Assembly: GCA_963752325.1 (NCBI GenBank)
Contig: CAVVXU010000004.1
Coordinates: 50,559-114,558 of the forward strand
From: an uncultured Alphaproteobacteria bacterium
GTDB taxonomy: Bacteria; Pseudomonadota; Alphaproteobacteria; Geminicoccales; Geminicoccaceae
Direction of reading: 5' to 3'
DNA length: 64,000 bases
Position 1 is the first letter of the stretch. The number at the start of each line of letters is the position of its first letter. A program made the translations under genes and the position numbers. The notes below the pieces were generated by a model that saw nothing but the letters and a program-made list of their open reading frames with translations, was not told the origin of the DNA and ran no database searches. Below are positions 6,750-24,540 of this stretch, one piece after another.

Positions 6750-6837
6750 GGAGGGATGGCCGAGTGGTTTAAGGCGCACGCCTGGAAAGCGTGTTGGGGG
6801 CAACTCCTCGCGGGTTCAAATCCCGCTCCCTCCGCCA
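6750..6837 (+). tRNA. tRNA-Ser(GGA): tRNA-Ser (anticodon GGA)
   Basis: Acceptor stem GGAGGGA/TCCCTCC, D-arm GCCGAGTGGTTTAAGGC, anticodon loop CU-GGA-AA, long variable arm, T-arm GCGGGTTCAAATCCCGC, discriminator G and an encoded CCA. Confidence 0.95.
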
Positions 6838-7044
6838 ATTAATTGCAGAAATGCTTTAGATTTCAGTAGCTTACATACGCATGACCTCACCGATTGCCAC
6901 TTTAGCTACCACAGCAGGGTTCGGTCATGGGCGCACTTGAGCAGACACGTGTGGCTATCCGACGGCCCTCATAGCTGGAGCGCCGAGACTGGAGTGCCCC
7001 CGCTTGGGTGGACACCGCGTTCACTTTCGCGCAAGGAGTCGCCC

Positions 7045-7152
7045 ATGCCCAGAACACGCCCTCCTTATGCGCCGGAATTCCGGCGGCGGATGGTCGAGCT
7101 GGTCCGCGCCGGACGTGATCCGGCGGATCTGGCCCGCGAGTTCGAAGCATGA
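7045..7152 (+). pseudogene. IS3-family OrfA (HTH) N-terminal fragment
   Basis: MPRTRPPYAPEFRRRMVELVRAGRDPADLAREFEA* matches the usual IS3/IS911-type OrfA start. It terminates after 35 aa. Degenerate OrfA-like sequence (..TVAEREELIR..) is visible in other frames up to about 7330. Confidence 0.6.
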
Positions 7153-7483
7153 TCCGTAGCAGGCGGGTCATCCGACCTGCGCAGTAGCGGCGGTCAGCAG
7201 GCCGCCGAGGGGGGCCCAGGGCGATCCGGCACTCGGTTGCCGGGGCTGACCGGCAGGAAGGCCGCCGGCAGCCCAGGCCGGTCGACCCGGCACTGACGGT
7301 TGCCGAACGCGAGGAGCTCATCCGCGAGATCGCCACGGCCGAGCGGGCTCTGGCGGCCTTGGACGGCAACCGGTGCGACAGTTATCAGAAGGCGCTGGGC
7401 ATGTTCAATGAGGAGACGCGCGAGGTGTGGGCGCCGGAGGCGGTCGACCCGGACGAGCCCGAGGAAGGCGGCTATGAGCGTGA

Positions 7484-7723
<240 letters not shown>

Positions 7724-7796
7724 CACGTCAAGACAGTCGCTGACTCCCGCTGGAGCTTCGAGGTTGTGCTCAAGCGCATACGGGAGCGCCAGTCCA

Positions 7797-9494
7797 TCAA
7801 TAGTGCCCGGCGGCCCGCATCATCCGGTCGATCCGCGACTGTGCGGTGGCAAGGGCATCGGCTGGCGAGGCACCACCCGACAGCATGGCATGCAGATCCT
7901 CGCCCAGGATGTGGATGATCCGCGAGAACTCGGCCACGGGAGGGTGCGGCCAGTGCTGGAGCTGGCCGGTCTTGGCGAGACCATCGACGACCCCGATCAC
8001 CGGGCCGAGTGACAAGACCTCGGGATCGGCGGCGACGCTGAAACGCGGGCTCACCGAGGCGCCGTTCACGGCGATCAGCTTGGCGAGGCTGGGTGAGGTG
8101 AGCCACTGGGCCAGGCGCCAAGCCGGCTGGATGCGGCCCGGCGGGAGATTGGCCGGCAGCCCGATGGCATAGCCGCCCGCCGGTGCTAGGCTCCACCCCG
8201 GCCTGCCGGACGGGTGGGGGAGATACCCGGTGCGGCCGCGCGCGACCGAGGTCGGGTCGAGCTCGAACTCCGCCACCCGCGAGGACCAAGTGTAGCTCAT
8301 CGCAACTCGACCCCTGGCGTAGGCCTCGAGCCGCTGATCCCAACCCATGCCGAGAATCTCGGGGGGCGAGATCTCGATGAGGCCGAGGAGAAACTCTGCC
8401 GCCGTCAGGGCCTCGTGCGTATCGAGTGAGGGCCGCAGCGCCTCGCCCTTGAGCTGACCCAGGTCGACCTGCTCGCCCCGCCGTCTAAGGTGGAGCAGCG
8501 GCTGGCCGAAGGCCGCCAGCACCTGGGCATAGGTCTGGCCCAGCCCCTGGCCGCGTGCCGCGTTCCAGGAGATGCCATAGCGGTCGCGCGAGGCGCACTG
8601 TAGCTTCCGACCGGCTTCGCGCACCGCCTCGACCGATCGCGGCGGCTCGAGCCCGGCCTCGGCAAAGAGGTCCTGACGGTAGCAGAGAAGCTCGGCCGTG
8701 GGCTCGATCGGGATGCCGTATTGCCGGCCGTCGAGCTGGGCCGCCTCCCACGCCGCGGGATAGAAGTCGCAGATGCCGGCTGGCAGGGGATCGAGCAGGT
8801 CGTCGAGCGGCATCAGGGCCTCGGCCGCGGCAAGCTCGCCCAGCCAGGCGAAGGTGAAGCTGACGATGTCGAAGGCCGAGGTCGCGGCCTTCCGGTTCTC
8901 GAGGATGGTGCTCAGCAGCTCCTCGAGCTCGAGGACGGTGATTTCCAGCCGGCAGCCGGTCAGTCGCTCGATCGTGACCCGGAGGCGAACGATTGCGTTG
9001 AAGCTGGGCTGGCGCTTGACGAGCATCTTGATCGGCCCGAGCCCACGCCCCAGCCCCCGAAGCGGCTCGGGCGGGGCGATGATGCGGGCCGCCAGATAGG
9101 CGCCGCCGAAATAGTAGCCGGCCTCGCCGTCGGCCGGCATGCCCAGGGTCTCGCCCACGCGCGCCTTGACGTCGGCGGCCAGGCTCTCGACGCGGCGGAG
9201 CAGCTCGGCCGTGGGCTCGATCGCGAAGGATTTTCCGGTGCGGCCGCGCGGCCGGCGGAGCAGAAGGCCGGCGCTGAAGAGCTCGCCGATGCGGCGCATC
9301 GCCGTGGCGTAGGGGATGCCGCTCGCCGCGGCGAGGCTCGAGATCGTGACGAGCCGGCCTGCGAGATAGCGGCCCACGAGGAAAAGGATCATGCCCCAGA
9401 TCGGGTCCTCGGCGCGCACGCCGAGGCACTCGATCGCCGGTGCTCGCGTCCGCTCGATGAAGCGCAGCAGCGACTGCAGCTCGGCTCGCGTCAC
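7797..9494 (-). CDS. fusion protein: N-terminal winged-helix DNA-binding domain plus family-1 extracellular solute-binding-protein (SBP) fold, with no signal peptide
   Basis: 565 aa. Residues 1 to about 115 (..LVTISSLAAASGIPYATAMRRIGELFSAGLLLRR..) look like a MarR/IclR-type wHTH. The rest (..QYGIPIEPTAELLCYRQDLFAEAGL...YTWSS...) has the layout of sugar-type ABC SBPs. There is no Sec or TAT leader. Confidence 0.85.
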   Translation of the reverse strand: MTRAELQSLLRFIERTRAPAIECLGVRAEDPIWGMILFLVGRYLAGRLVTISSLAAASGIPYATAMRRIGELFSAGLLLRRPRGRTGKSFAIEPTAELLRRVESLAADVKARVGETLGMPADGEAGYYFGGAYLAARIIAPPEPLRGLGRGLGPIKMLVKRQPSFNAIVRLRVTIERLTGCRLEITVLELEELLSTILENRKAATSAFDIVSFTFAWLGELAAAEALMPLDDLLDPLPAGICDFYPAAWEAAQLDGRQYGIPIEPTAELLCYRQDLFAEAGLEPPRSVEAVREAGRKLQCASRDRYGISWNAARGQGLGQTYAQVLAAFGQPLLHLRRRGEQVDLGQLKGEALRPSLDTHEALTAAEFLLGLIEISPPEILGMGWDQRLEAYARGRVAMSYTWSSRVAEFELDPTSVARGRTGYLPHPSGRPGWSLAPAGGYAIGLPANLPPGRIQPAWRLAQWLTSPSLAKLIAVNGASVSPRFSVAADPEVLSLGPVIGVVDGLAKTGQLQHWPHPPVAEFSRIIHILGEDLHAMLSGGASPADALATAQSRIDRMMRAAGHY

Positions 9495-9527
9495 GGTTCT
9501 TGCCTCCCCGGACCGTGCGGCCCGCCC

Positions 9528-9563
9528 TTATCCATATTGAATAACTCGACCGTTCCGCAACGG
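9528..9563. promoter_or_regulatory. two inverted repeats in the divergent intergenic region (candidate operators)
   Basis: TTATCCATATTGAATAA (9528-9544) is an AT-rich imperfect palindrome in GC-rich DNA. CCGTT-CCGC-AACGG (9550-9563) has perfect 5-bp arms. Both lie between the wHTH-SBP gene (start 9494) and the dehydrogenase gene (start 9616). Confidence 0.25.
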
Positions 9564-9615: not shown

Positions 9616-10608
9616 ATGCATGGGCGCAGGGTGCTCTGCAACATACAACAACTCGAGGGACGCCCGGCGCCGTTCCTCGCTCCGCTGCGCGAGGCCGGAT
9701 TTGAGGTCGTGATGAACGAGAAGCAGCGGCTTCTCGCCGAGGACGAGCTCATCGACCTTCTTCCTGGAACTTGCGCAACCATTGCTGGTGGCGAGGTCTA
9801 TTCATCGCGTGTCTTCGAGAAGGCCCACGATCTTAGGGTCGTGGCGCGGTTCGGGGTCGGCTATGACCGTGTGGATGTGGAGGCGGCGACGCGGGCGGGC
9901 GTCGCCGTCGCGATGGCCTTCGGCACCAACCACGAGAGCGTCGCAGATTTTGCCTTCGCCCTCGTGATGGCTCTCGGGGTCGAGCTCTTGCCGCACCATC
10001 GCCGCGTCGCAGAGGGCGGCTGGGGCTGCAGCTTCCATCACGGCGTCTGGGGCCGCACGGTGGGCATCCTGGGCCTCGGCCGGATCGGCAAGGCCATGGC
10101 CATGCGTTGCCTGGGCTGCGCCATGCGCGTTCTGGCCCACGACACGGCGCCTGATCGCGCCTTCGCTGCGGCGCACGGGATCGAGCTCGTGCCCTTGGGC
10201 ACGATGCTGGCCGAAGCCGATTTCGTCTCGGTCCACACGCCGCTGCTGCCCGAAACGCGGCACATCATCGGAGGGCGCGAGCTGGCGCTGATGAAGCCCA
10301 CCGCCTTCATCGTCAACACCGCGCGCGGTGGCTTGATCGACGAGGAGGCGCTGCACGAGGCGCTCGTCGCGGGGCGCCTCGGCGGCGCCGGGCTCGACGT
10401 CTTCGAGCACGAGCCGCCCCAGGGCTCGCCGCTGCTCGGCCTCGACCGTGTGATCCTGGCGCCCCATGCGGCCGGCATGGACGAGGCGGCCGAGCGGCTG
10501 ATGGGCGAGCGCTGCGTCGCCAGCATCCTTGCCGTCCTCGACGGCCGCGATCCGGGCCCCGGCTACGTGCTCAACCCTGCCGTTCTGTCTGCAAAGGAAA
10601 GAAGGTGA
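9616..10608 (+). CDS. D-isomer-specific 2-hydroxyacid dehydrogenase family protein
   Basis: GGGGAGG RBS. Motifs ILGLGRIGKAMA (NAD-binding GxGxxG), ..NTARGGLIDEEAL.., ..LDVFEHEP.., ..ILAPHAAG.. are typical of the PGDH/GyaR family. Confidence 0.9.
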   Translation: MHGRRVLCNIQQLEGRPAPFLAPLREAGFEVVMNEKQRLLAEDELIDLLPGTCATIAGGEVYSSRVFEKAHDLRVVARFGVGYDRVDVEAATRAGVAVAMAFGTNHESVADFAFALVMALGVELLPHHRRVAEGGWGCSFHHGVWGRTVGILGLGRIGKAMAMRCLGCAMRVLAHDTAPDRAFAAAHGIELVPLGTMLAEADFVSVHTPLLPETRHIIGGRELALMKPTAFIVNTARGGLIDEEALHEALVAGRLGGAGLDVFEHEPPQGSPLLGLDRVILAPHAAGMDEAAERLMGERCVASILAVLDGRDPGPGYVLNPAVLSAKERR

Positions 10609-11387
10609 TGTCGGCGCGAGGAATGGCACTCAAGGAGCGCCTGAAGGCTGGTGCCGTGGCCTATGGTGCTTGGCTCTCGATTGCCGATCCGGTCGTGGCC
10701 GAGATCATGGCGGGCGCTGGCCTCGACTATGTGATGATCGACACCGAGCATGCACCCTGGAGCCTCGAGCGGCTGCAGACGGCGCTGATGGCCTTTCGCG
10801 GCGTCGAGACGGTGCCCATCGTGCGCGTGCCCTGGAACGACCAGGTCCATGTGAAGCAGGCGCTCGACGTGGGCGCCGAGGGCATCCTGGCGCCGATGGT
10901 CCGCACGCTCGCCGAGGCGAAGGCGCTGGTCGCCGCCTGCCGCTACCCGCCCGACGGCATCCGCGGGTTCGGGCCCAGGCGGGCCAGCGACTATGGTCGC
11001 GACATCGAGGGCTATATGGCGCTCGCCAACGGCAGCACGATCATCATCCCGCAGATCGAGGACGTGCGCACGGTGGACGAGATCGAGGCGATCCTCGACC
11101 TGCCCGGCGTCGATGCGCTGTGCATCGGGCCGAACGACCTTTCCGGCAGCGCCGGCCTGCTGCGCCAGCACGACCATCCGGTCGTGAAGCGTGCGATCGA
11201 CCGCATCCTTGCCGCCGCCAAGGCGCGCGGCGTCGCGGTTTGCACCGGCATCACCCTGCCGCCCGAGGCGCAGCCCGCCTGGGTCGAGAAAGGCGCCCGC
11301 TTGGCATTGGTCACGGCGGACACCGATCTTCTGGCCAAGGGCTTGGCCGAGGCGCTGGCGAAGGCACGGGCCGCCATCGCCGGCTGA
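10605..11387 (+). CDS. HpcH/HpaI-family 2-keto-3-deoxy-acid aldolase
   Basis: The start overlaps the upstream stop (GTG10605 or ATG10608, TGATG). GAWLSIADPVVAEIMAGAGLDYVMIDTEHAP...IVRVPWND...ILAPMV...QIEDV...IGPNDLS is the characteristic HpcH/HpaI pattern. Confidence 0.9.
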   Translation: MMSARGMALKERLKAGAVAYGAWLSIADPVVAEIMAGAGLDYVMIDTEHAPWSLERLQTALMAFRGVETVPIVRVPWNDQVHVKQALDVGAEGILAPMVRTLAEAKALVAACRYPPDGIRGFGPRRASDYGRDIEGYMALANGSTIIIPQIEDVRTVDEIEAILDLPGVDALCIGPNDLSGSAGLLRQHDHPVVKRAIDRILAAAKARGVAVCTGITLPPEAQPAWVEKGARLALVTADTDLLAKGLAEALAKARAAIAG

Positions 11388-11422: not shown

Positions 11423-12499
11423 TCAGCCGGCCCTTCTTGCGTGGCGGCGGAGGAGGATGTCGAGCGAGCCCACGACGATGATGAGAAGGCCCGCCGCGAC
11501 GTCGCCGATGTTCTGGGAGAAGCCCAGGAGCACCATGCCGCTCGTGATCATGCCGATGATGAGAGCGCCCATGAGGCTGCCGAAGACGCTGCCGCGGCCG
11601 CCCGAGAGCGCCACGCCGCCCACCACCGCGGCACCGATGACCCGGAACTCGAAGCCGGTACCTGCGGTCGGGCCGGCGACCCGGAGATAGCCGAACAAGA
11701 GGGCCGAGACGAGGCCACACAAGGCACCCGTCAACATGAAGCAGCGCAGCTTGACGCCGGCGAGGTCGATGCCCGCGTTGCGCGCCGCCTCGGGGTTGCC
11801 GCCCACGGCGTAGACGTGTGAGCCGAAGCGTGTCCGCGCCAGCACGATCCCGCCGATCGTCACGACGACCAGCATCCAAATGATGAGCCAGGGCACCTCG
11901 CCCATCAGATCGCCGCCCGTCACCCGGTAGAAGAGCTCGCGGCCGCGCGTCGCGAGCGGCCGCTCGTTCGTCAGGAGCAGTGCCGCGCTGCGGTAGCCGA
12001 CGAGCATCGCGAGCGTGACGATGAAAGAGGGGATCCCTATACGCACGACGATGAGGCCGTTCACCGTGCCGAGCAGAAGGCCCAGCAGGACGATGAGCGG
12101 CATCGCGAGCCAGGGGCTGAGGCCGGCCGTGACCACGAGCAGACCCATCGAGACGGTGAGCACGCCGTGCATCGAGCCGACCGAGAGATCGATCTCGCCG
12201 GCGACCAGCAGGTAGGTGATGCCGACGGCGACGATGCTGATCAGCGAGATGCTGCGCAGCGTGTTGAAGAGGTTGAACTTCGAGAGGAAGTGCGGCGCCA
12301 TCAGCGCGAAGAAGAGGAAGATCAGGATCGCAATGCCGACGAGCGCCGTGTCTCTCGCGAGGAGGATGCGCCGCAGGCGGGCTGCCGGGGCATCCTGGTC
12401 GACCGCCCGTCTGGAGTGGCGCGCACCATGGGCGCGCAGCGTCGCCTCGGCCTGCGTGTCGATGGCTGCGGCGTCGGCTGCCTGTCTCGTCCCCGGCAT
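11423..12499 (-). CDS. CUT2 (ribose-type) sugar ABC transporter permease
   Basis: 358 aa, multi-pass membrane protein. ..GEIDLSVGS.., ..TLAMLVGYRS.. and ..GGRGSVFGSLMGALIIG.. are typical of the RbsC/BPD_transp_2 family. Confidence 0.9.
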   Translation of the reverse strand: MPGTRQAADAAAIDTQAEATLRAHGARHSRRAVDQDAPAARLRRILLARDTALVGIAILIFLFFALMAPHFLSKFNLFNTLRSISLISIVAVGITYLLVAGEIDLSVGSMHGVLTVSMGLLVVTAGLSPWLAMPLIVLLGLLLGTVNGLIVVRIGIPSFIVTLAMLVGYRSAALLLTNERPLATRGRELFYRVTGGDLMGEVPWLIIWMLVVVTIGGIVLARTRFGSHVYAVGGNPEAARNAGIDLAGVKLRCFMLTGALCGLVSALLFGYLRVAGPTAGTGFEFRVIGAAVVGGVALSGGRGSVFGSLMGALIIGMITSGMVLLGFSQNIGDVAAGLLIIVVGSLDILLRRHARRAG

Positions 12500-12507
12500 C
12501 GCGCCGC

Positions 12508-13248
12508 CTACGCCGCCTCGGCGCCGACGATCAGCTTGACGATCTCGTCGGCCGTCGTCTCGGCGCGCCTGCGCACGCCCGCCACCCGGCCGCGCCGCAT
12601 CACGAGGATGCGGTCGGCGACCGTGAAGACGTGCCGGAGATTGTGGCTGACGATCAGGACACCGGTGCCCTGCGCCCGGAGGCGCTCGACGAGATCGAGG
12701 ACCTTTTGCGACTCCTGGATGCCTAAGGCCGCCGTGGGCTCGTCCATGATGATCACGCGGCCGTTCTGGGCCGTGGCCCGGCCGATCGCGATCGACTGGC
12801 GCTGCCCGCCCGAGAGCTGGCCCGCCTCGGTGTCGAGCGAGGGGAGGTGGACCTTGAGCTCGTGGAGGACGCGTCGCGCACCCTCGCGCATCGCCTTGCG
12901 ATCGACGAACCAGCGGAAGCGCACCGGCTCGCGACCGAGAAAGAGGTTGGCCGCGACGTCGCGCTGATCGATCAAGGCGAGGTTCTGGAAGACGGTGGCG
13001 ATACCGAGCTCGCGGGCATGGAGCGGGTCGGTGAGCTGGACAGGCGTTCCGGCCACCTTCATCTCGCCGTGATCCGGTTGGTGGACGCCGCTCAGGATTT
13101 TTATCAGGGTCGACTTGCCCGCACCGTTGTCGCCGACGACGGCCAGCACCTCGCCCGTGAAGATGTCGAGATCGGCGCCGGTCAGGGCCTGGACCTTGCC
13201 GAACGACTTGGCGAGGCCGCGGCAGTGGATATAGGGCTCGATATGCAC
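12508..13248 (-). CDS. sugar ABC transporter ATP-binding protein (single nucleotide-binding domain, 246 aa)
   Basis: GTG at 13248 with AGGAG 11 nt upstream. Walker A GDNGAGKST, signature LSGGQRQ, Walker B VIIMDEPTAAL, H-loop SHN. The rest of ORF 12508-14238 overlaps the SBP gene and is an artefact. Confidence 0.85.
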   Translation of the reverse strand: MHIEPYIHCRGLAKSFGKVQALTGADLDIFTGEVLAVVGDNGAGKSTLIKILSGVHQPDHGEMKVAGTPVQLTDPLHARELGIATVFQNLALIDQRDVAANLFLGREPVRFRWFVDRKAMREGARRVLHELKVHLPSLDTEAGQLSGGQRQSIAIGRATAQNGRVIIMDEPTAALGIQESQKVLDLVERLRAQGTGVLIVSHNLRHVFTVADRILVMRRGRVAGVRRRAETTADEIVKLIVGAEAA

Positions 13249-13301
13249 CGTGCCGGCGTCTCCTTCATGGGGGCGCCGGCTGCCCGGCGCCCCTCGGCCT
13301 C

Positions 13302-14360
13302 TCACATGATGCCGTAGGCCTTGGCCTGGGCCACCCAGATGTCGGTGCGCTCGCCGATCATCTTGAGGTTGTCGGCCGTCACGAGCTCGCCGCCGGTGCG
13401 GATCGAGGGGTAGGGATATTTCCGCTCGATCTGGACCCAGGCGGTCGCCGCGGAGAGGAAGCCCATTAGATAGAACTGCTGGTCGATGCCCCACTGCACC
13501 CAGCCATCGGCGATGGCCTGCTGCTGGGCGGGCGGGATGTCGGTCGAGCCGCAGGCGATCTGGCCGGGCTTGAGGTTGCGCTCCTTCATCGCCTGCACGA
13601 TCGGCAGCGGGTTGCCGGTGCCGATGGCGCCTACGAGGCTCGAGCCCTTCTCGTCGATCTTGGCGGTCCACTTCTGGACCGACTGGGTCATCTCGCCGAA
13701 CGAGTTGTCCGGGAACGCCTCGAAGGTGTAGCTCGTCCCGTTCTCCTTGTTGTAGGCCTCGATGCCTTGCTTGCTGCCGTTCTGCCGCTTGTCGATCGAG
13801 GTCGAGCCCGGGTTGCCATTGCCCAGGACGATGACGCCCTCCTTCTTGCTGGTCAGCTTCTGGGCGAAACGGGCTGCGGCCGTGCCGTTGATGATGCCCG
13901 CGTTGAACTCGTCCTGATTGATGATGCCGAGGCCCAGCGCCTTGGCCTCGGCCTCGATGCCCTGGTCCGTGATGACCATAGTGATGCCGGCATCGAGGCC
14001 GCTCTGGAAGCTGCCGATGAGCCCCTCGCTCTCGAGCTCGGTCACGATCACGTCGGCGCCTGAGGCGATCGCGTTGTTCACCTGCTCGACATGGTTCTCG
14101 ACCGAGTAGTTGGGATTGCCGATGCGCTGGTAGGACCAGCCGACCATCCCGCAGAAGTCGCGGAAGCCGACCTGCATGGCCGTGTCCCAGTCGCCCAGCG
14201 CCTGGGGCACCCAGACGAGCTTTCTGGACGGACCCCACGTGCCGCCGGCCGCGAGGCCCGACAGGGGTACCCCCATCGTGGCCGCCGCGACGGCCGCGGC
14301 GCCGAGCCCCGCTCCGCCAGCGATAATGCCGCGCCGGCTCGTCTTTCCGGTCTCACGCAT
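13302..14360 (-). CDS. sugar ABC transporter periplasmic binding protein (type I PBP) with a twin-arginine-like leader
   Basis: MRETGKTSRRGIIAGGAGLGAAAVAAA leader, followed by a RbsB-like fold pattern (..VIVTELESEG..VITDQG..VLGNGNPGS..). Confidence 0.9.
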   Translation of the reverse strand: MRETGKTSRRGIIAGGAGLGAAAVAAATMGVPLSGLAAGGTWGPSRKLVWVPQALGDWDTAMQVGFRDFCGMVGWSYQRIGNPNYSVENHVEQVNNAIASGADVIVTELESEGLIGSFQSGLDAGITMVITDQGIEAEAKALGLGIINQDEFNAGIINGTAAARFAQKLTSKKEGVIVLGNGNPGSTSIDKRQNGSKQGIEAYNKENGTSYTFEAFPDNSFGEMTQSVQKWTAKIDEKGSSLVGAIGTGNPLPIVQAMKERNLKPGQIACGSTDIPPAQQQAIADGWVQWGIDQQFYLMGFLSAATAWVQIERKYPYPSIRTGGELVTADNLKMIGERTDIWVAQAKAYGIM

Positions 14361-14414
14361 TCTTTCTCTCCCTGATCGCTCTTTTTGAAGGCCACGGGCC
14401 GCGTAGCCGGCCGC

Positions 14415-15413
14415 TCACTCCGTCGCGCCGGCGAGGCTGCCCGAGCTTCGCCGCACCAGAAGGTTGAGGCCGGCGGCGACCAGGATGACGAGGGCGGTCG
14501 CCACGCCGCCCCAGTACTCCCGCACGCCGGCCAGGATGATGCCCGACGTCAGCATCCCCAGGATGAAAACCCCGACGAGGCTGCCGAAGACGGTGCCGCG
14601 ACCGCCGAACAGCGATGTTCCGCCGATGATCACGGCGGCGATCACGTCGAGCTCGAGGTTGGTGCCGGCACCCAGCGGTGCCAGGGCCAGCCGGCCGAAG
14701 AGCAGGACCGCCGCGACGCCGCAGAGCCCGCCCATCAGGATGAAGGAGACGAGCTTGGCACGTCTGGTCGCGATGCCGTTGTTGCGCGCCGCCTCGGGGT
14801 TGCCGCCGGTGGCGTAGACGTCGCTGCCGACCTTGGTCCGCGCCAGCACGATCCCGCCGATCACGGCGACGAGCAGCATGACGCCGAACGAGACCGGCAC
14901 GGGCGTTCCCGGCAGGTCGGAGCGCAGCACCTGGTAGAAGGAGAGCTGGGTGTTGGTGACGGGTATCGGATAGCCGCTCGAGACGGTGTTCGCCGCCCCG
15001 CGTAGAAGCGCCATCATGCCGAGGGTCGTGATGAACGAAGGAAGGCCGATCCGCGTGACCAGGAGCCCGTTCACAGCGCCGACGGCGGACCCGAGGCCGA
15101 TGATCAGGAGGGCGCCCAGCCACGGATCGACATGGGCTTTCTCGACCAGATCGGCCAGCAGGATCAGAAGGAAGCCGTAGTGCGAGCCGATCGACAGGTC
15201 GAGCTCTCCGGCGACGAACAGAAACGTCATGCCGACAGCGAGTGTTCCAAGGATCGCGGCACGCCGCGCTATGTCGATCAGCACGTTCGTCGATAAGAAG
15301 TGCGGTGCAAACAGCGAGAAGAATAAGAACATCACGGTCGCCACCAACGCAATCGCGACATCGCGATTACGAAAGATCTGGCCAATATCGGATGCGTCAG
15401 CAGCCCGTGCCAC
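14415..15413 (-). CDS. CUT2 sugar ABC transporter permease (second permease of the same system)
   Basis: 332 aa, paralogous in pattern to 11423-12499 (..GELDLSIGS.., ..GGRGTVFGSLVGVFILG..). Confidence 0.9.
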   Translation of the reverse strand: MARAADASDIGQIFRNRDVAIALVATVMFLFFSLFAPHFLSTNVLIDIARRAAILGTLAVGMTFLFVAGELDLSIGSHYGFLLILLADLVEKAHVDPWLGALLIIGLGSAVGAVNGLLVTRIGLPSFITTLGMMALLRGAANTVSSGYPIPVTNTQLSFYQVLRSDLPGTPVPVSFGVMLLVAVIGGIVLARTKVGSDVYATGGNPEAARNNGIATRRAKLVSFILMGGLCGVAAVLLFGRLALAPLGAGTNLELDVIAAVIIGGTSLFGGRGTVFGSLVGVFILGMLTSGIILAGVREYWGGVATALVILVAAGLNLLVRRSSGSLAGATE

Positions 15414-15584
15414 GGTGTCTTTTGTCCGACCGGAAGTGCCCCGGCTCGTGGAGCGCGTATCCCGCTTGGTTTGTTGTCAGCCTCCAACTACCATTGATAG
15501 GCGCAAGTCGGCCGCCTGTCACGGCAGCATCTGTCCGATCTGGATAAACCGTGGCGGCACGCACGGAGGGGAGGAGGCGAGGGG

Positions 15585-16457
15585 ATGAGCGACGTCGTCT
15601 GCGTGGTCGATGCGAAGGCGGAGCTGGGCGAAGGGGCGCTGTGGGACGAGCGCCAGGGCGTCCTCTACTGGGTCAACATCCTAGCCGGGGAGATTCACCG
15701 CTACGACCCGCGCTCGGGCGGCGACGCGATCCTGAAGGTGCAGGGAGCGGTGGGATCGCTCGCGCTTCGTGAGAACGGTGGCATCGTCGCCGCCCTGGAC
15801 CGCGCTTTCGTCTTCATCGATGTAGCGACGGGCCGGATCGAGCCCGTGGCCGAGGTCGAGCCGGACCGGCCCGAGAACCGTATGAACGACGGCAAGCCCG
15901 ACCGTCAGGGCCGCTTCTGGGCCGGCTCGATGCACAATCCGCACAACCGCCAAGCCGGTGCCCTCTATCGCCTAGACCCGGACCGAACGGTCACGCGCAT
16001 GGTCGAGCGCGTCACCGTCTCGAACGCGCTCGCCTGGAGCCCGGACAGCCGCACCATGTACTATGGCGACAGCATGGCCCAGACGGTGTGGGCGTGGAGC
16101 TTCGATCCGGACAGCGGCGCCATCCGGGACCGGCGCGTCTTCCTCGACCCGCAGGCGATCGGCGGCAATCCGGATGGCGCCACGGTCGATGCCGAGGGCT
16201 TCTACTGGCTGACCGTGCCCGGCGCCTGGCGCCTCAACCGCTACGACCCGCAGGGCCGCCTCGACCGCTCGATCCGCCTTCCGGTCTCCAACCCGACCTG
16301 CTGCGCCTTTGGCGGAGCCCGGCTCGAGACGCTTTACGTGACCTCCGCCACCTTCATGGCCAAGCCCGAGCATCTCGTCGACCAGCCGCTGGCCGGCGCC
16401 CTCCTTGCCCTCGAGCCGGGCGTTCGGGGCACCGCGGAGGCACGGTTCAAGGGCTGA
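15585..16457 (+). CDS. SMP-30/gluconolactonase/LRE-family lactonase
   Basis: AELGEGALWDERQGVLYWVNILAGEIHRYDP...NDGKPDRQGRFWAGSM...NALAWSPD...PDGATVDAEGFYW is the six-bladed propeller lactonase signature. GGAGG-rich RBS upstream. Confidence 0.9.
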   Translation: MSDVVCVVDAKAELGEGALWDERQGVLYWVNILAGEIHRYDPRSGGDAILKVQGAVGSLALRENGGIVAALDRAFVFIDVATGRIEPVAEVEPDRPENRMNDGKPDRQGRFWAGSMHNPHNRQAGALYRLDPDRTVTRMVERVTVSNALAWSPDSRTMYYGDSMAQTVWAWSFDPDSGAIRDRRVFLDPQAIGGNPDGATVDAEGFYWLTVPGAWRLNRYDPQGRLDRSIRLPVSNPTCCAFGGARLETLYVTSATFMAKPEHLVDQPLAGALLALEPGVRGTAEARFKG

Positions 16458-16527: not shown

Positions 16528-17415
16528 CTAGCCCTTGAAGCCGGTGGTGACGATGCCCTGCGTGAACAGGCGCTGGAAGCAGATGTAGATGATCATGAGC
16601 GGGATGGCGGAGATGACGGTGGCGGCCATGAGCTGGCCCCAGGGGGTGATGTCGCCGTGCATGCCGGCAAGGCCCAGGACGATCGTCATGATCTCGGGCT
16701 TGTTCACGACGACGAGCGGCCAGAGGAAATCGTTCCAGCCGGCGGTGAAGCCGAAGATGGCCACCACCCCGATCGCCGGGCGGCTGATCGGCAAGATGAT
16801 GCGCAGCAGCACTTGGAGGTAGTTGCAGCCATCGATGCGTGCCGCGTCCTCGAGCTCGCGCGGGATGCCGAGGAAGAACTGGCGCATGAAGAAGACGCCG
16901 AACCACTGCACCACGTGCAGCACGATGATGCCCTCGTAGGTGTTCAGCAGCCCCAGGTTCCGGACGATGATGAAGGAGGGGATGAGCGTCACCTGCAGCG
17001 GCACCATCATGGCCCCCAGATACATGAAGAAGATGACGTCACGGCCCCAGAAGCGCAGGCGTGCGAAGGCGTAGCCCGCGAAGACCGACGTCACCACCGT
17101 GCAGATCATCTCGATCGTGGAGACGAGGAACGAGTTGAAGAGCCAGCGCCCCAGCGGGTAGTCGTTCCAGGCTTCCGCATAGTTGGCCCAGCGGATGTGG
17201 GAGGGCACGATCGCCCTGGAGATGCCCAGCTGGAACAGGTCCTCCTCCGGCTTGAGGGAGGTCGACACCATCAGGATGTAGGGCAGCACGACTACCAGGG
17301 CCCCTACGATGAGCAGGCCATAGAGCGAGGCGTGGACCAGAAGCCGCCGCCGCGCCGGCATGACGGCGATGTCGGAGCTGGCCCGAGGTCGGGAGGTCTC
17401 GATGCTGGCCTGCAC
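16528..17415 (-). CDS. CUT1 carbohydrate ABC transporter permease (MalG-like)
   Basis: EAA loop ..PRELEDAARIDGCNYLQVLLRIILPISRPAI... GTG17415 overlaps the upstream stop (TAGTG). ATG17361 (MPARRRLL..) is an equally plausible start. Confidence 0.85.
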   Translation of the reverse strand: MQASIETSRPRASSDIAVMPARRRLLVHASLYGLLIVGALVVVLPYILMVSTSLKPEEDLFQLGISRAIVPSHIRWANYAEAWNDYPLGRWLFNSFLVSTIEMICTVVTSVFAGYAFARLRFWGRDVIFFMYLGAMMVPLQVTLIPSFIIVRNLGLLNTYEGIIVLHVVQWFGVFFMRQFFLGIPRELEDAARIDGCNYLQVLLRIILPISRPAIGVVAIFGFTAGWNDFLWPLVVVNKPEIMTIVLGLAGMHGDITPWGQLMAATVISAIPLMIIYICFQRLFTQGIVTTGFKG

Positions 17416-18338
17416 TACTGGACCTCCATCCGCTTGCGCAACGCGTAGAACTGCAGCAGCGTCAGGAGGAAGACTATGGCGAAGAGCACGTAAGCCACGG
17501 CGCTGGCATAGCCCATGCGGAAGAACTGGAAGGCCTGCTGGTAGAGGTACATCACGATGATGTTGGTGGCGTTCATCGGGCCGCCGGCCGTCATCACATA
17601 GATCACGGCGAAGGCGTTCTGGGTGGCGCGGATGGTGCCCAGCACGAGCACGAAGAAGGTCGTCGGCATCAGCAGCGGGAAGATGATGTGCACGAAGACC
17701 CGCCAGGCGCTGCAGCCGTCGATGCGGGCTGCTTCCTTCAGCTCCGTCGGGACGCCCTGTAGCGCTGCGAGGTAGATGACGGTGAAGTAGCCAACCTCGC
17801 GCCAGCTGAAGGTGAGGATCACGGTGGGCATGGCCCATAGCGGGTCGGCACCCCAGCCCGGCTCGGGCAGCCCTCCGGCGCGCAGGACCTGGTTCACGAT
17901 GCCGTACTGCGGATCCAGGATCCACAGCCAGACCACCGCGGTGGCGACGAGCGAGGTGACCACGGGCGAGTAGAAGAGGGCCCGGAAGATCGTCGTCCCG
18001 CGCAGGCCCTGATTCAGAGCCATCGCCATGCCGAGCGAGCCCACGAGGACGACCACGAGGTCACCGATCACGAAGAGGATCGTGTTGAGGATGATCCGGA
18101 GAAACTCGGGGCTCGTCAGCAATTCCTTGTAGTTGCCCAGACCGATGTAATAGCGCTCCGGATCGAGAGGGCTCCAATCATAGAACCCAAGATAGAACGA
18201 GTACCCGACCGGCCAGATGATGAACACGCAGAAGAAGATGAAGGTCGGCAGGACGAAGAGAACACCGTAACGGGCCTGCTCCTCGCGGATATAGTCCAGG
18301 ATCCCGTCAGCAGCCTGGCGGAACCATCGTGAGATCAT
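17415..18338 (-). CDS. CUT1 carbohydrate ABC transporter permease (MalF-like)
   Basis: 307 aa. ..LQGVPTELKEAARIDGCSAWRVFVHIIFPLLMP.. is an EAA motif. Six predicted helices. Confidence 0.9.
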   Translation of the reverse strand: MISRWFRQAADGILDYIREEQARYGVLFVLPTFIFFCVFIIWPVGYSFYLGFYDWSPLDPERYYIGLGNYKELLTSPEFLRIILNTILFVIGDLVVVLVGSLGMAMALNQGLRGTTIFRALFYSPVVTSLVATAVVWLWILDPQYGIVNQVLRAGGLPEPGWGADPLWAMPTVILTFSWREVGYFTVIYLAALQGVPTELKEAARIDGCSAWRVFVHIIFPLLMPTTFFVLVLGTIRATQNAFAVIYVMTAGGPMNATNIIVMYLYQQAFQFFRMGYASAVAYVLFAIVFLLTLLQFYALRKRMEVQ

Positions 18339-18483
18339 GTGGGGGCTCCTCGCCGGACGGGGTCACATCCCTGGCGATCCCGCTGCCGGAGGCAGCGGCC
18401 CGGCCCCGATCCTCCATCGTGGCGGGCCTGCCGGACCTCGCTATTCTGCTCGCGGCCCTGCGATGTCGCGCGGCCCCGTAGCC

Positions 18484-19797
18484 TCACCCCCTTCGCCTGA
18501 GGGCACGGTCCAGAGCCACCTGCGCGTCCTTGGTGGCGGCGTCCATCGCGTCCTTCGGCGTCTGTCGGCCGTAGATGACCGCCTCGATCGCTTGCGACAC
18601 CCGGGTCGAGATCTCCGCGGCACCCGGCCCGGCATAGGAGAGGCGGGCATCCTGCTGCGCGTCGAGGAAGGGCTGCACGAGCGGCTGCTTGGCCTGATAG
18701 TCCTGCCACACAGAGGATTGGCGATAGGAAGGACGTGGTGGCAGTTGGCCGAAGACGACGTTCCAAAAAGCGTTGTTGTCCGCATCGAGGCCGATGAACC
18801 TGCTGAACTCCCAGCCGGCCTTCCACGTCGCGGAGTTCTTGAAGACCATGATGGAGCCGTAGCCCAGGGGCACCGTCGCCGACTTGGGCCCGCGTGGCCG
18901 GGCCGCCGTCTGCGCCTTGAAGCTGGCGGTCGCCACGCGCTCCAGCACCGAGGGAAAGCCGAAGATCGAGCCGACCCTGCCGGTGAGGAAGTCCCTCAGG
19001 CCCTGGGCCTCGGTCGTGGGCTTGATGGGCATCGACTTCCGGTCGCGGACCATGTGGCGGTACCACTCCATCGCCTGCACCCCTTCGGGGCTGCTCAAGG
19101 TGATGGTCTTCCCGTCCTGGGAGAGAAGCTCGCCGCCGAACGCCCAGAGGATGTTCTGGAACCACTGGCCGCCGGACTGGTCGTCGGGCGCCGTCAGGAG
19201 ATAGTGCCCCCAGGTCTGCGTGCCGGGATCGGAAATCTTGCCGGCCACCTCCGCGAGCTCGTCGAGGGTCTGGGGCGGCTTGTCCGGATCGAGGCCCCTG
19301 GCCTTGTAGAGATCGCGGTTATAGATGAAGCACAGCGCCCCGCTGTTCACGGGCATCGCATACATCTTGCCGTTGCGGCTCACGGCCTCCCGGATCGGTG
19401 GAATCCAGTCGTAGCTGCTGATCTTCGGGTCCAGGTCGTCCAGGGCCACGGCCTGACCGCGGTCGATGAACAGGGCATTGAGCTCCGGTCCGCCGAAGCG
19501 CGCTGCGCTAGGAATGTCGCCTCCGGCTATGGCCGTGGCGAGCTTGGTGCTGATCTGGTTCTGCGGCACGAGCACGAAGTCGAGATCGGCCGCCTTCTGC
19601 TGGGCGCGGAAGCGGTCCACGATCTTTTGAAAGTTGTCCATCTGGAAGGGCTGGTTGAACCAGAAGCTGCCCTTCAGCTCCTGCGCTTGGCCCGTCGAAG
19701 CCCCGCCGCTCAGCGCGGTGAGGGCCGCGCCACCGAGAGCAGCCTGCATGAAGCCGCGGCGTGGAAGACCGCATCCTAAGATCCGATTCAAGGTCAT
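18484..19797 (-). CDS. CUT1 extracellular solute-binding protein with a TAT-type leader
   Basis: MTLNRILGCGLPRRGFMQAALGGAALTALSG leader, followed by a family-1 SBP pattern (..KMYAMPVNSGALCFIYNRDLYK..). Confidence 0.9.
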   Translation of the reverse strand: MTLNRILGCGLPRRGFMQAALGGAALTALSGGASTGQAQELKGSFWFNQPFQMDNFQKIVDRFRAQQKAADLDFVLVPQNQISTKLATAIAGGDIPSAARFGGPELNALFIDRGQAVALDDLDPKISSYDWIPPIREAVSRNGKMYAMPVNSGALCFIYNRDLYKARGLDPDKPPQTLDELAEVAGKISDPGTQTWGHYLLTAPDDQSGGQWFQNILWAFGGELLSQDGKTITLSSPEGVQAMEWYRHMVRDRKSMPIKPTTEAQGLRDFLTGRVGSIFGFPSVLERVATASFKAQTAARPRGPKSATVPLGYGSIMVFKNSATWKAGWEFSRFIGLDADNNAFWNVVFGQLPPRPSYRQSSVWQDYQAKQPLVQPFLDAQQDARLSYAGPGAAEISTRVSQAIEAVIYGRQTPKDAMDAATKDAQVALDRALRRRG

Positions 19798-20049
19798 GGC
19801 CTGCCTCCCATCATCGGCGATTTGTTCTCTCGCTTTTCTCGCAACCGCCGAGCAGTATCAGAAGAAGATTGAACGAGATCTCGTCCGCTACAGCCTCCTG
19901 GCCCGCTGGTGAACCAATCCTGGATTCAGAAGCTGCATCTTTCGGCAATGGAGCTGCACGGTCAAGCGCTCGCAAGGGCCGAGCGTGCCGGGCGCTCTTT
20001 GCATCCCGTCTCCTGAGCTCTCGAACAGATAGAGGATCATCGGCACCGG

Positions 20050-21681: not shown

Positions 21682-21763
21682 GATGCGCTCCCTCTTTCTG
21701 ATTTGTGGTCGTCGCGACTGCCCGTGGCCGACGATCGCCTCGTCGTCAGCTTCCCTGTTCGGC

Positions 21764-23212: not shown

Positions 23213-23341
23213 GGCTAGCTTACGGCCTCCCCAGGCTTTCGTTAGAGGTAGGTTACCACGCTGCCCGATCTAGTCCAAACCGATTTCGTTTCGGCGGCGG
23301 CGATCCGGCCATTACACACATGAAATATAAAATTCAATCTA

Positions 23342-24508
23342 AGAACGTTGGTATTCTATAAAAAAATAGTTTATCTCGGCTTGATGTCTCGCCGTTCTAA
23401 CAAAAGAAAGGACTTATCTGTTTAGTTCATGTGGGTCTGCATCTTGTAGCTTGCATGGGGAATGTTGGTGGCGAGGCCGACGAGGCGATGGAAGGCGGCG
23501 TGCCGATTATGATGGCGATTGAAGCGGAAGGTGAGCTCATCGAGGTAGGCCTGGAGGTGCTCGGGCCGGAGACCGTGATATGTGCCGAGCGCCCGGCGCT
23601 TCAGATTGCTGAAGGCGCGGTGCACGGCGGGCAGGACGATGTGGGCTGCCATGGGACCGACCTTGCTGCGGCGATGGCCCTTGACGGGCGGATCGAGATG
23701 GCCGCTCCAGGCGTCGGTGTGGATGGTGGCGTCGCCGGTGATGCTTGTGCCGATGAATCTGTTGAGGCTCGCGGCCGAGAAATCCTCGATGGCGGCGAGA
23801 CGCAGCCGGCCGGGCTTGCCACCCTCGATCTCGACGGCACCCGCGACCTTCATCTTGGCCGCGCCCGAGCGTTCCTGGCCGCCGCCGGGCGGGTCGTTCC
23901 TCGTCCGCTGCGGCAGGCTGGTCTCGTCGACCTCGACCAGGCCAGCCAGGGGCAGACACTCGGGATGGACCATGGCGCGGCGCAGCTTGCGGGCCAGGAG
24001 CCAGGCCGTCTTGTACGAGCCGATGCCGAGCTGCGCCTGCAGCTGCAGCGCCGAGATGCCGTTCGAGTGGGTCGCCATCAGATAGGCCGCCGAGAACCAT
24101 CGTCGGTCAGCAGACCGCCGATCCACCCACGCAGCGGCCGAGGCCAGGAGGCCTCGGCGGGGTGGTCAGCGGCAAATGGGAGCGGTGCATCACCATGCCG
24201 GCGGTCTCCGACGTCTGCCGGTCGCAGCCGGCGCATTCGAAGGTCGGCAGCCGCCGCTCGAGCCGCCAGGCACGGTTGTGACCACAGGCTGGACGGCAGA
24301 GCCCCTGCGGCCAACGCACCGCCACGAGATACTCGCCGCACGCCTCGTCCGTCGGGAAACGCCGCTGGAACTCCACCAGGCTCGTCAGAGACATCGCCAT
24401 CTGACCCCTCCCCCAGCGCCGCCGTCCATCACATCATCTGGTTTAAGTGTCGTCAAAGGGATAAGCCGAAAATATAATACCAAGGAAGAATTCAACGTGC
24501 TCAAGAGA
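23342..24508 (-). mobile_element. IS1595-family insertion sequence (boundaries approximate)
   Basis: A transposase remnant lies inside. AT-rich ends carry imperfect inverted repeats: AACGTTGGTATTC near 23344, and the reverse complement CACGTTGAATTC near 24500. An 8-bp direct repeat TCAATCTA sits at 23334-23341 and 24509-24516. The repeats are not perfectly symmetric about the IRs. Confidence 0.55.
23422..24400 (-). pseudogene. IS1595-family (ISXO2-like DDE) transposase, disrupted
   Basis: The N-terminal zinc-ribbon part is in ORF 24107-24400 (..CPACGHNRAWRLE..FECAGCDRQTSETAGMVMHRSHLPLTT). The body is in ORF 23422-24126 (WFSAAYLMATHSNGISALQLQAQLGIGSYKTAW...). The two parts are separated by 61 nt (24100-24160) that shift the frame. 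Confidence 0.8.
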
Positions 24509-24540
24509 TCAATCTACACTACTCTGTTCCGCAATGACTT

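What the first reader, a model, noticed from the sequence alone, without database searches (positions are those of the whole stretch)
7797..9563. Cytoplasmic winged-helix plus ABC-type solute-binding-protein fusion as a one-component regulator
The 565-aa protein has no signal peptide. It starts with a region of about 115 aa resembling a MarR/IclR-type wHTH. The rest has the layout of a family-1 (CUT1-type) extracellular SBP. Classical regulators reuse periplasmic-binding folds (LacI type I, LysR type II). A full-length sugar-type SBP fold used as the cytoplasmic sensor of a wHTH protein is, to my knowledge, poorly characterised. The gene is divergent from a 2-hydroxyacid dehydrogenase and HpcH aldolase operon. 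The 121-bp intergenic region carries an AT-rich 17-bp imperfect palindrome (9528-9544) and a perfect CCGTT-N4-AACGG repeat (9550-9563) that could be operators.
Basis: inference. Interest (0 to 1): 0.6.

Follow-up and report, generated by a model that had tools for sequence, protein, structure and literature searches.

The report
Cytoplasmic MarR-head, sugar-binding-protein-sensor regulator
This gene is labelled in databases as an exported sugar-transport binding protein, but it most likely encodes a cytoplasmic transcription factor: a MarR-like DNA-binding head fused to a transporter-type sugar sensor, belonging to a widespread family I could not find described, and I identified its probable DNA operator.

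Summary
ORF 7797-9494 (-) encodes a 565-aa protein with no signal peptide and no membrane segment. Residues 1-116 fold as a MarR-like winged helix. A conserved linker follows, then a full family-1 ABC solute-binding domain whose closest solved structure is the ribitol-binding protein 5IAI.

The regulator reading is supported and sharpened. The architecture is conserved full-length in at least 587 species genomes, mostly Alphaproteobacteria, and is annotated everywhere I looked as "extracellular solute-binding protein". The upstream neighbour is divergent in 50 of 64 loci. A ribose-type (CUT2) sugar ABC transporter lies within 6 kb in most loci.

That motif gives 46 hits in 36 of 87 upstream regions, against 0.6 hits in shuffles. 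The site is the best-scoring one in the whole 6.3-Mb genome. A weaker copy lies at 15531-15547, between the ABC operon and a lactonase gene.

The closest known analogue is SgrR (wHTH + SBP_bac_5), but this protein is not a member of that family. Ligand, sign of regulation and DNA binding itself remain untested.

The parts
7797..9494 (-). Gene for the 565-aa wHTH-SBP fusion protein (GTG start at 9494, stop at 7797-7799)
   Evidence: ORF. Full-length homologues of 560-610 aa. AF2 model with pLDDT 86.
9147..9494 (-). N-terminal MarR-like winged-helix domain, aa 1-116. Elements: a1 3-24, a2 31-44, a3 51-58, recognition helix a4 62-74 (invariant P61, Y62, T64, R67), wing b78-82/b90-94, long a5 96-116.
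   Evidence: Alignment. Models. Foldseek top hits are MarR, MepR, MexR, ST1710, HucR and MftR. The profile search of PDB sequences puts MarR-family proteins on top. Pfam MarR_2 hits 21 of 23 members.
9045..9146 (-). Linker, aa 117-150, with the conserved motif YYFGG-Y-x3-R-I-I-x-PP (G130 and P142 invariant). It is modelled with low confidence.
   Evidence: Invariant columns. pLDDT is below 50 for residues 117-136.
7800..9044 (-). Family-1 (CUT1/MalE-type) solute-binding domain, aa 151-565, the presumed ligand sensor
   Evidence: Pfam SBP_bac_1 and SBP_bac_8. PDB profile hit to 5iai at E 2.4e-58. Foldseek match to 5iai with target TM-score 0.90, then MalE3, TMBP and 4rya.
9528..9544 (.). Probable operator O1: the 7-3-7 palindrome TTATCCA-TAT-TGAATAA. 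It lies 34-50 nt upstream of the regulator's GTG and 72-88 nt upstream of the dehydrogenase ATG.
   Evidence: Conserved in relatives with 92% and 68% identity while the rest of the spacer diverges. It is an instance of a family-wide motif. It is the best PWM score in the 6.3-Mb genome.
9550..9563 (.). Perfect CCGTT-N4-AACGG inverted repeat. It is not supported as an operator. The overlapping TGCGGAACG (regulator strand) is conserved in three orthologous spacers and may belong to a promoter.
   Evidence: 75% of shuffles contain such a repeat. The left arm is changed in L010, and only TGCGGAACG is kept in L001.
9616..11387 (+). Divergent two-gene unit: D-2-hydroxyacid dehydrogenase (9616-10608) and HpcH/HpaI aldolase (10605-11387, 4-nt overlap). 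Presumed direct target.
   Evidence: Pfam. The same pair lies divergent from the 68% orthologue in L001.
15531..15547 (.). Candidate second operator O2, CTGTCCGATCTGGATAA. It lies 38 nt upstream of the lactonase ATG, in the 171-bp spacer shared with the ABC operon.
   Evidence: It is the only other site of 8 bits or more in the 64-kb window. It is kept in the close relative G001 with changes that stay inside the consensus.
11423..15413 (-). CUT2-type sugar ABC transporter operon: permease 14415-15413, Peripla_BP_4 binding protein 13302-14360, ATPase about 12508-13290, permease 11423-12499. Presumed regulon member.
   Evidence: Pfam. Homologous CUT2 components lie within 6 kb of the regulator in 62-73 of 86 family loci.
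15585..16457 (+). SMP-30/gluconolactonase-like lactonase. Presumed regulon member through O2.
   Evidence: Pfam SGL at E 4e-88. Position of the O2 site.

Best explanation
The gene most likely encodes a cytoplasmic one-component transcription factor.

**Shown in silico**
- The protein has three parts: a MarR-like winged-helix head with flanking helices a1 and a5, a conserved linker, and a complete two-lobed CUT1-type solute-binding domain.
- It has no export signal.
- It belongs to a large family that keeps this architecture.
- A 7-3-7 palindrome (consensus ATCCA-N3-TGGAT; here TTATCCA-TAT-TGAATAA) accompanies the gene across that family.

**Inferred**
- The protein dimerises through a1 and a5, as MarR proteins do.
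- Each recognition helix (PYATAMRRI) reads one half-site, the two half-sites being one helical turn apart.
- At O1 the protein controls its own promoter and the divergent dehydrogenase-aldolase pair. Through the weaker O2 it controls the lactonase gene and the CUT2 sugar ABC operon.
- A sugar, polyol or sugar acid of this pathway binds in the cleft of the sensor domain. Closure of the two lobes is passed through the linker to the heads and changes DNA affinity.
- I favour a repressor released by its ligand (about 60%). O1 and O2 lie 34-54 nt before start codons, where they would cover the -10/start region, and most MarR-type and local sugar regulators work this way.
For: **Architecture**
- Domain hits and models.
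- No signal peptide or TM segment, with positive controls in the same window.

**Family**
- 739 word-search hits, with full-length coverage at 40-68% identity among the 120 listed.
- 587 confirmed loci in species-representative genomes from a single peptide pattern.
- The N-domain alone finds 772 representative clusters. The full-length ones among the 150 listed are 540-630 aa, and the mid-length ones tested are truncated wHTH-SBP proteins.
- More distant relatives of the same winged helix are the output domain of response regulators.

**Regulator-like context**
- The upstream neighbour is divergent in 50 of 64 callable loci.
- CUT2 ABC genes lie within 6 kb in 62-73 of 86 loci.

**Operator**
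- O1 is conserved in L010 and L001.
- The motif gives 46 hits in 36 of 87 upstream regions, against a mean of 0.62 (maximum 3) in dinucleotide shuffles.
- It is about 15 times denser upstream than in the rest of the loci.
- By PWM, about 78 of 87 loci carry the motif or the Rhodobacterales variant RTCAGATTTGGAY.
- Tandem sites lie 21 bp apart in five loci.
- In this genome O1 is the top PWM hit, and only 13 sites reach 12 bits or more.
- A frameshifted paralogue on another contig has its own copy 48 nt upstream.
- O2 is the only other window site, and it is kept in a relative.
Against: - There is no experimental evidence of DNA binding, dimerisation or ligand binding for any member.
- For this protein the Pfam MarR_2 hit is below the curated cut-off (16 bits against 27).
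- The palindrome could in principle belong to another factor.
- Family-wide, the two arms do not covary (Fisher test not significant). The symmetric A>G/T>C change between the window and L001 is therefore a single anecdote.
- About nine of 87 loci lack a recognisable upstream site, including the 66% relative L009, whose only site lies just after its stop codon.
- No sigma-70-like promoter was detected in either spacer, so the position of the operators relative to promoters is unknown, and so is the sign of regulation.
- The linker is modelled with low confidence, so signal transmission is conjecture.
Confidence: 0.8

Rival explanations
1. The protein is a genuine ABC-transporter solute-binding protein, as annotated. 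The N-terminal 150 residues would be a mis-called start or an unusual export or anchoring region.
For: All public annotations call it an extracellular or sugar-transport binding protein. The C-terminal 415 residues are a complete SBP fold.
Against: - The N-domain is as conserved as the rest of the protein: 58% mean column identity over 23 sequences, against 57% for the whole protein.
- It folds confidently as a winged helix.
- There is no hydrophobic segment anywhere, while real SBPs in the window carry Tat leaders.
- No CUT1 permease pair sits beside the gene. Its neighbours are CUT2 systems that have their own binding protein.
Confidence: 0.03
2. The protein is a DNA-binding regulator, but the SBP domain no longer binds a small molecule. 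It would serve as an oligomerisation or partner-binding module, for example sensing the state of the ABC transporter or an enzyme by protein contact.
For: No ligand is known. The linker and the domain interface are poorly modelled. The tight association with CUT2 transporters would also fit a transporter-coupled mechanism.
Against: - The two-lobe fold is complete and superposes on ligand-bound SBPs (target TM-score 0.86-0.90).
- Many charged and aromatic residues are invariant across 32 sequences (D209, W217, D243, F244, R273, D275, W515).
- Whether these residues line the cleft was not measured.
Confidence: 0.1
3. The palindrome is the site of a different transcription factor, or simply an AT-rich promoter element, and the fusion protein binds elsewhere or not at all.
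For: The centre of the site (CAATAT) resembles an alphaproteobacterial -10 element. One high-scoring genome hit (C5:1309387) lies between a LysR gene and a TRAP binding-protein gene and could be a LysR box.
Against: - The motif follows the fusion gene through loci whose other genes differ. A GntR homologue is present in only 4 of 86 loci.
- It also follows the paralogue in this genome.
- It is dyad-symmetric with a 10-bp half-site spacing and occurs in tandem at 21 bp.
- Shuffles with the same dinucleotide content almost never produce it.
Confidence: 0.07

Closest known systems
SgrR / DsvR (E. coli SgrR, V. cholerae Vca0578): SgrR_N winged helix + SBP_bac_5 domain
   Same: It has an N-terminal HTH followed by a full-length transporter-type solute-binding domain. 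It is cytoplasmic, autoregulates, and acts as a local transcription factor for sugar-related genes (architecture and autoregulation as described in bioRxiv 10.64898/2026.04.01.715812).
   Different: - The head is MarR-like, with no SgrR_N (PF12793) match among the hits shown.
- The sensor is family 1/8 (MalE/polyol type), not family 5 (peptide/nickel type).
- The operator differs and so does the taxonomic range, which here is mainly Alphaproteobacteria.
- The two are convergent domain recruitments, not homologous families.
MarR-family transcription factors (MarR, MepR, MexR, ST1710, HucR, MftR, HpaR)
   Same: The head has the same topology (a1, a2, a3, a4, wing, a5) and its best structural and sequence matches are MarR proteins. 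The target is palindromic, which implies a dimer.
   Different: - MarR proteins are single-domain proteins of about 140-180 aa that bind ligands at the interface between the dimerisation and DNA-binding regions. Here a separate 415-aa SBP domain is appended.
- The sixth helix is missing.
- This protein's Pfam score is below the MarR_2 threshold.
CUT1 ABC solute-binding proteins, nearest 5IAI (Arad_9887, an Agrobacterium radiobacter solute-binding protein; ribitol ligand recalled from memory) and 4RYA (sorbitol binding protein)
   Same: The sensor domain is a homologue: profile E 2.4e-58 and target TM-score 0.90 to 5iai.
   Different: It has no signal peptide or lipobox and no partner CUT1 permeases, and it has a DNA-binding head.
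TrmB family (archaeal sugar-sensing regulators of the trehalose/maltose ABC transporter)
   Same: TrmB is a wHTH regulator that senses sugars directly and controls a sugar ABC transporter (my own knowledge). Pfam TrmB wHTH is weakly hit by 12 of 23 family N-domains.
   Different: In TrmB the sensor domain is the TrmB-specific C-terminal sugar-binding fold, not an SBP fold (my own knowledge). No such domain was detected here.
LacI/GalR and LysR regulators
   Same: They follow the same logic: a periplasmic-binding-protein-like, two-lobed sensor fused to a DNA-binding head.
   Different: They use different heads (LacI HTH; LysR wHTH) and much smaller, long-diverged type I / type II PBP cores. Here the sensor is a recent, full-size CUT1 transport SBP that general SBP profiles still recognise.

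Membership tests
MarR family | Winged-helix fold flanked by N- and C-terminal helices that form the dimer interface | tested here: met
   The AF2 model of the N-domain has pLDDT 89. Nearly all of the top 50 Foldseek matches are MarR-family proteins, aligned over about 115 of 125 residues. Only one C-terminal helix (a5) is present instead of two.
MarR family | Pfam MarR (PF01047) or MarR_2 (PF12802) above the gathering score | tested here: not met
   This protein scores 12.7-16.2 bits against a cut-off of 27. Family-wide, 21 of 23 N-domains hit MarR_2, best E 1.4e-7.
MarR family | Single-domain protein of about 140-180 aa with the ligand site inside the dimer | tested here: not met
   The protein is 565 aa and has a separate SBP domain.
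MarR family | Homodimer binding a (pseudo)palindromic operator at its own or a divergent promoter | tested here: inconclusive
   A conserved 7-3-7 palindrome lies in the right place, but no binding or dimer was demonstrated.
SgrR family | SgrR_N winged-helix domain (PF12793) | tested here: not met
   No hit at E up to 10 on aa 1-122. The domain is not among the 25 of 28 families listed for the 23 members.
SgrR family | C-terminal SBP_bac_5 domain | tested here: not met
   The sensor is SBP_bac_1/SBP_bac_8.
SgrR family | N-terminal HTH + full-length SBP, cytoplasmic | tested here: met
   The SgrR architecture is taken from the paper read.
CUT1 extracellular solute-binding proteins (current annotation) | SBP_bac_1-type two-lobe fold | tested here: met
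CUT1 extracellular solute-binding proteins (current annotation) | Signal peptide or lipoprotein signal for export | tested here: not met
   No hydrophobic N-terminus or TM segment. Control SBPs in the window have Tat leaders. No dedicated signal-peptide predictor was available.
CUT1 extracellular solute-binding proteins (current annotation) | Encoded with two BPD_transp_1 permeases and an ATPase | tested here: not met
   The neighbours are a dehydrogenase, an aldolase and a CUT2 system. The nearest CUT1 system (16528-19797) has its own SBP.
TrmB family | TrmB wHTH (PF01978) plus TrmB C-terminal sugar-binding domain | tested here: not met
   12 of 23 N-domains give a weak TrmB hit (best 1.4e-4). 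No TrmB C-terminal domain was found.

The most novel reading that the evidence does not exclude
This gene would be one member of a large, unrecognised class of bacterial one-component regulators found in hundreds of species, mainly Rhodobacterales and Hyphomicrobiales. In this class a transport-type CUT1 binding protein was pulled into the cytoplasm and welded to a MarR-like head. The whole class would share one operator code (ATCCA-N3-TGGAT), while the sensor diversifies to read different sugars, polyols or sugar acids. The members would typically govern CUT2 ABC transporters and oxidative sugar pathways. If so, hundreds of 'extracellular solute-binding proteins' in databases are mis-annotated transcription factors, and the family would be a ready-made modular scaffold for sugar biosensors.
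Probability: 0.6. Interest if true: 0.7.

Novelty: new variant of a known kind. Interest (0 to 1): 0.62.

Why it matters
- **Annotation.** Genome pipelines call every member I saw an exported transporter component. Transporter counts are therefore inflated, and a whole regulator family is missing from regulatory-network reconstructions of marine and soil Alphaproteobacteria, including model organisms such as Phaeobacter, Roseibium and Agrobacterium.
- **Evolution.** It is a second, independent case, beside SgrR, of a full-size transport binding protein being recruited as the cytoplasmic sensor of a transcription factor. This shows that the route that once produced LacI and LysR is still open.
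- **Practical use.** A conserved head and operator combined with a well-understood, engineerable MalE-type sensor would make a modular biosensor chassis.
- **For this genome.** The result predicts a small regulon: the dehydrogenase-aldolase pair, the lactonase and the CUT2 ABC transporter, located next to sulfatase genes. This regulon can be tested directly.

Tried and rejected
- **CCGTT-N4-AACGG as an operator.** Rejected. It is at chance level and is not kept in L010 or L001.
- **Arm-to-arm covariation in the palindrome as proof of dimer binding.** Not significant family-wide.
- **Sigma-70 promoter scan of both spacers.** It found nothing, so promoter positions are unknown. My reading that the palindrome centre CAATAT, with GTTGCG 16 nt upstream, is the regulator's promoter is speculation.
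- **Genome-wide regulon by PWM.**
  - Only 13 sites reach 12 bits or more.
  - The second-best (C5:1309387) lies between a LysR gene and a TRAP SBP gene and may be a LysR box.
  - The window hit at 31297 lies inside a permease gene.
  - I therefore claim no regulon beyond O1 and O2.
- **GbsR paper.** It describes no regulator-SBP fusion and is not relevant.
- **Literature.** Seven searches found no description of this family. The library lacks most subscription journals, so absence is not proof.
- **Ligand prediction from pocket residues.** Not attempted, because model coordinates and ligand contacts of 5IAI were not available to me.
Full report
**1. The observation**

The minus-strand ORF 7797-9494 (GTG start, 565 aa) is the longest reading of its frame. 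A GGAGG lies 7-8 nt before the start.

Pfam finds SBP_bac_1 (aa 216-469, E 9.5e-22) and SBP_bac_8 (aa 188-493, E 1.7e-16). It finds only a sub-threshold MarR_2 hit at aa 31-85. NCBIfam gives just a weak partial MalE match.

The divergent genes are a D-2-hydroxyacid dehydrogenase and an HpcH/HpaI aldolase.

**2. The protein**

An alignment of 32 full-length relatives shows that the N-terminal region is as conserved as the sensor. Residues T50, P61, Y62, T64, R67 and P94 are invariant, and the core reads VPYATAMRRI-x7-GL-x4-RPR.

The AF2 model of the whole protein has pLDDT 86. It contains:
- helices 3-24, 31-44, 51-57 and 62-74;
- a two-stranded wing (78-82 and 90-94);
- a long helix 96-116;
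- a low-confidence linker carrying the conserved YYFGG...RII.PP motif;
- a two-lobed domain from about residue 150 onwards.

Foldseek places the whole model on sugar and polyol ABC binding proteins. The best match is 5iai, a solute-binding protein of Agrobacterium radiobacter (ribitol-bound, from memory), with target TM-score 0.90. MalE3, the Thermococcus trehalose/maltose-binding protein and 4rya follow. The sequence profile agrees, with 5iai at E 2.4e-58.

The N-domain was folded alone from translated loci and reaches pLDDT 89. Nearly all of its top 50 PDB matches are MarR-family regulators (ST1710, MepR, MexR, HucR, MftR, HcaR, HpaR, MarR itself), aligned over about 115 residues.

Sequence evidence points the same way:
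- the profile search of PDB sequences puts MarR proteins on top;
- 21 of 23 family N-domains hit Pfam MarR_2, 11 hit MarR and 12 hit TrmB;
- SgrR_N is not matched.

There is no signal peptide and no membrane segment. The maximum 19-residue hydropathy is 1.45. The two bona fide binding proteins in the same window start with twin-arginine leaders. The protein is therefore cytoplasmic.

**3. The family**

- A word-indexed search returned 739 relatives. The 120 listed are almost all 560-620 aa, with 95-100% coverage at 39-68% identity, and where named they are called solute-binding proteins.
- A scan of one genome per species with a single peptide pattern confirmed 587 loci. Most are in Rhodobacterales and Hyphomicrobiales. 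A few are in Azospirillaceae, Paraburkholderia and Marinobacterium.
- Plasmid records of Phaeobacter, Rhizobium, Agrobacterium and Skermanella carry it under the label "extracellular solute-binding protein".
- The N-domain alone, searched against 1.84 billion representatives, finds 772 clusters. Mid-length hits are the same architecture cut by contig ends.
- Weaker hits are response regulators that use a related winged helix as their output domain. This independently marks the head as a transcriptional output module.

**4. Genomic context**

- In the 68% orthologue the same dehydrogenase-aldolase pair is divergent from the gene.
- In other members the divergent partner is a short-chain dehydrogenase or a Peripla_BP_4 sugar ABC operon with ThuA and oxidoreductases.
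- Over 86 loci, homologues of CUT2 permeases, ATPase and binding protein lie within 6 kb in 62-73 loci.
- A crude gene call finds the upstream neighbour divergent in 50 of 64 loci.
- The fusion gene is not paired with CUT1 permeases.

In the window the cluster continues with a CUT2 ABC operon (11423-15413, minus strand) and a divergent lactonase (15585-16457). Next come a CUT1 ABC system, two sulfatases, an IS1595 transposase, a deacetylase and a GntR gene. An oxidative, non-phosphorylative sugar or sugar-acid route is the natural reading, but I could not name the substrate.

**5. The operator**

*Close relatives.* I aligned the spacer with relatives at 92% and 68% protein identity. AGTTRTTCAATATGGAYAAG is kept while the rest diverges. 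In the 68% relative the two arms changed symmetrically (A>G and T>C).

*Across the family.*
- Searching 87 upstream regions with the degenerate palindrome found similar sites across the family.
- The core RTYCA-N3-TGRAY occurs 46 times in 36 regions. Dinucleotide shuffles give a mean of 0.62 and a maximum of 3.
- The motif is about 15 times denser upstream than in the remaining megabase of the same loci.
- A weight matrix built from these sites shows that about 78 of 87 regions carry either the symmetric site or a Rhodobacterales variant, AAATRTCAGATTTGGAY, near -90.
- Five loci have two sites exactly 21 bp apart.

*In the window's own 6.3-Mb genome.*
- O1 is the best-scoring site, and only 13 sites reach 12 bits.
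- Only four 17-mers match with at most one mismatch. One of them lies 48 nt upstream of a frameshifted paralogue on another contig.
- Within the 64-kb window only one other site exceeds 8 bits. It is 15531-15547, in the spacer between the ABC operon and the lactonase gene. A close relative keeps it, with substitutions that stay inside the consensus.
- Orthologues L001 and L009 also carry sites just after the regulator's stop codon; in L001 that site lies just before a TRAP transporter gene.

Its left arm is already changed in the 92% relative. Only TGCGGAACG is conserved, perhaps as part of a promoter.

**6. Mechanism**

*Shown in silico:* the architecture, the cytoplasmic location, family conservation, and a dyad-symmetric motif that travels with the gene.

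*Inferred:*
- a dimer formed through a1 and a5;
- each recognition helix reading one half-site, 10 bp apart;
- autoregulation plus control of the divergent pair through O1, and of the lactonase and ABC operon through O2;
- a pathway sugar, polyol or sugar acid closing the binding-protein lobes and changing DNA affinity through the conserved linker.

I lean towards a ligand-released repressor, because O1 and O2 lie 34-54 nt before start codons. No promoter could be located and expression data were unavailable, so this is about 60% likely.

**7. Comparison with known systems**

The nearest functional analogue is SgrR/DsvR, an HTH followed by an SBP_bac_5 domain that autoregulates. Both defining domains differ here, so this protein works like an SgrR but is not one.

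The head is MarR-like by fold. The protein nevertheless fails the MarR criteria of size, single-domain build and Pfam threshold.

TrmB, LacI and LysR share the logic but not the parts.

I found no paper describing this family, although the library is incomplete.

Earlier notes of this scan, read after I had derived the motif, report the same family and the same ATATCCA-N3-TGGATAT operator in other genomes. They also name SgrR as the analogue. They are unchecked AI notes and do not count as independent evidence. My own tests here agree with them.

**8. Verdict**

It is refined in two ways: one of the two proposed operators is real and family-wide, and the other is chance.

This is a new variant of a known kind, a one-component regulator with a transporter-SBP sensor. 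Confidence that it is a DNA-binding regulator acting at the palindrome is about 0.8. The ligand and the sign of regulation remain open.

Noticed in passing
genome contig C10:540450-542225 (outside the window): A paralogue of the fusion gene (39-46% identity) is read in three different frames, so it has two frameshifts: either a pseudogene or assembly indels. It has its own palindrome, TTGTTCACTTTGAACAT, 48 nt upstream. A further fragment (aa 495-559) lies at C10:530884-531078.
   Followed up: partly
window 6750-7790: tRNA-Ser(GGA) lies at 6750-6837. About 950 bp with no Pfam-recognisable ORF follow, directly downstream of the regulator gene. The regulator and sugar cluster may sit at the edge of a tRNA-associated island.
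   Followed up: partly
window 16528-25455: A CUT1 ABC system (permeases, and a binding protein at 18484-19797 with a Tat leader) is followed by two sulfatases (20050-21681 and 21764-23212), an IS1595-type transposase (23422-24126) and a polysaccharide deacetylase (24541-25455). This suggests use of sulfated sugars next to the regulated cluster.
   Followed up: partly
window 9553-9561 and the matching spacers of L010 and L001: TGCGGAACG (regulator strand) is conserved 7 nt upstream of the palindrome in three orthologous spacers. It could be a -35-like or ECF-type (GGAAC) promoter element.
   Followed up: no
proteins P0240, P0254, P0260: These are response regulators of about 300-340 aa with an N-terminal receiver domain and a C-terminal HTH_27/MarR_2 winged helix related to the head of the fusion family (E 1e-8 to 1e-9).
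   Followed up: partly
genome C5:1309387-1309407 (outside the window): The second-best PWM site in the genome (AAATCCAGTTTGAATAT, 19.5 bits) lies between a DctP-like TRAP binding-protein gene and a divergent LysR gene. It could be a look-alike LysR box or a true extra target.
   Followed up: partly
window 12508-13290: The ATPase of the CUT2 operon has a single ABC domain (about 260 aa) instead of the usual duplicated CUT2 ATPase of about 500 aa. The gene order permease, binding protein, ATPase, permease is also unusual. The 576-aa ORF listed at 12508-14238 is an overextended call that overlaps the binding-protein gene.
   Followed up: no
L001:9702-9722 and L009:3498-3518: In the two orthologues with 66-68% identity, a palindrome lies immediately after the regulator's stop codon. 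In L001 it lies before a DctP TRAP transporter gene. The regulator may therefore also control the gene downstream of itself there.
   Followed up: partly
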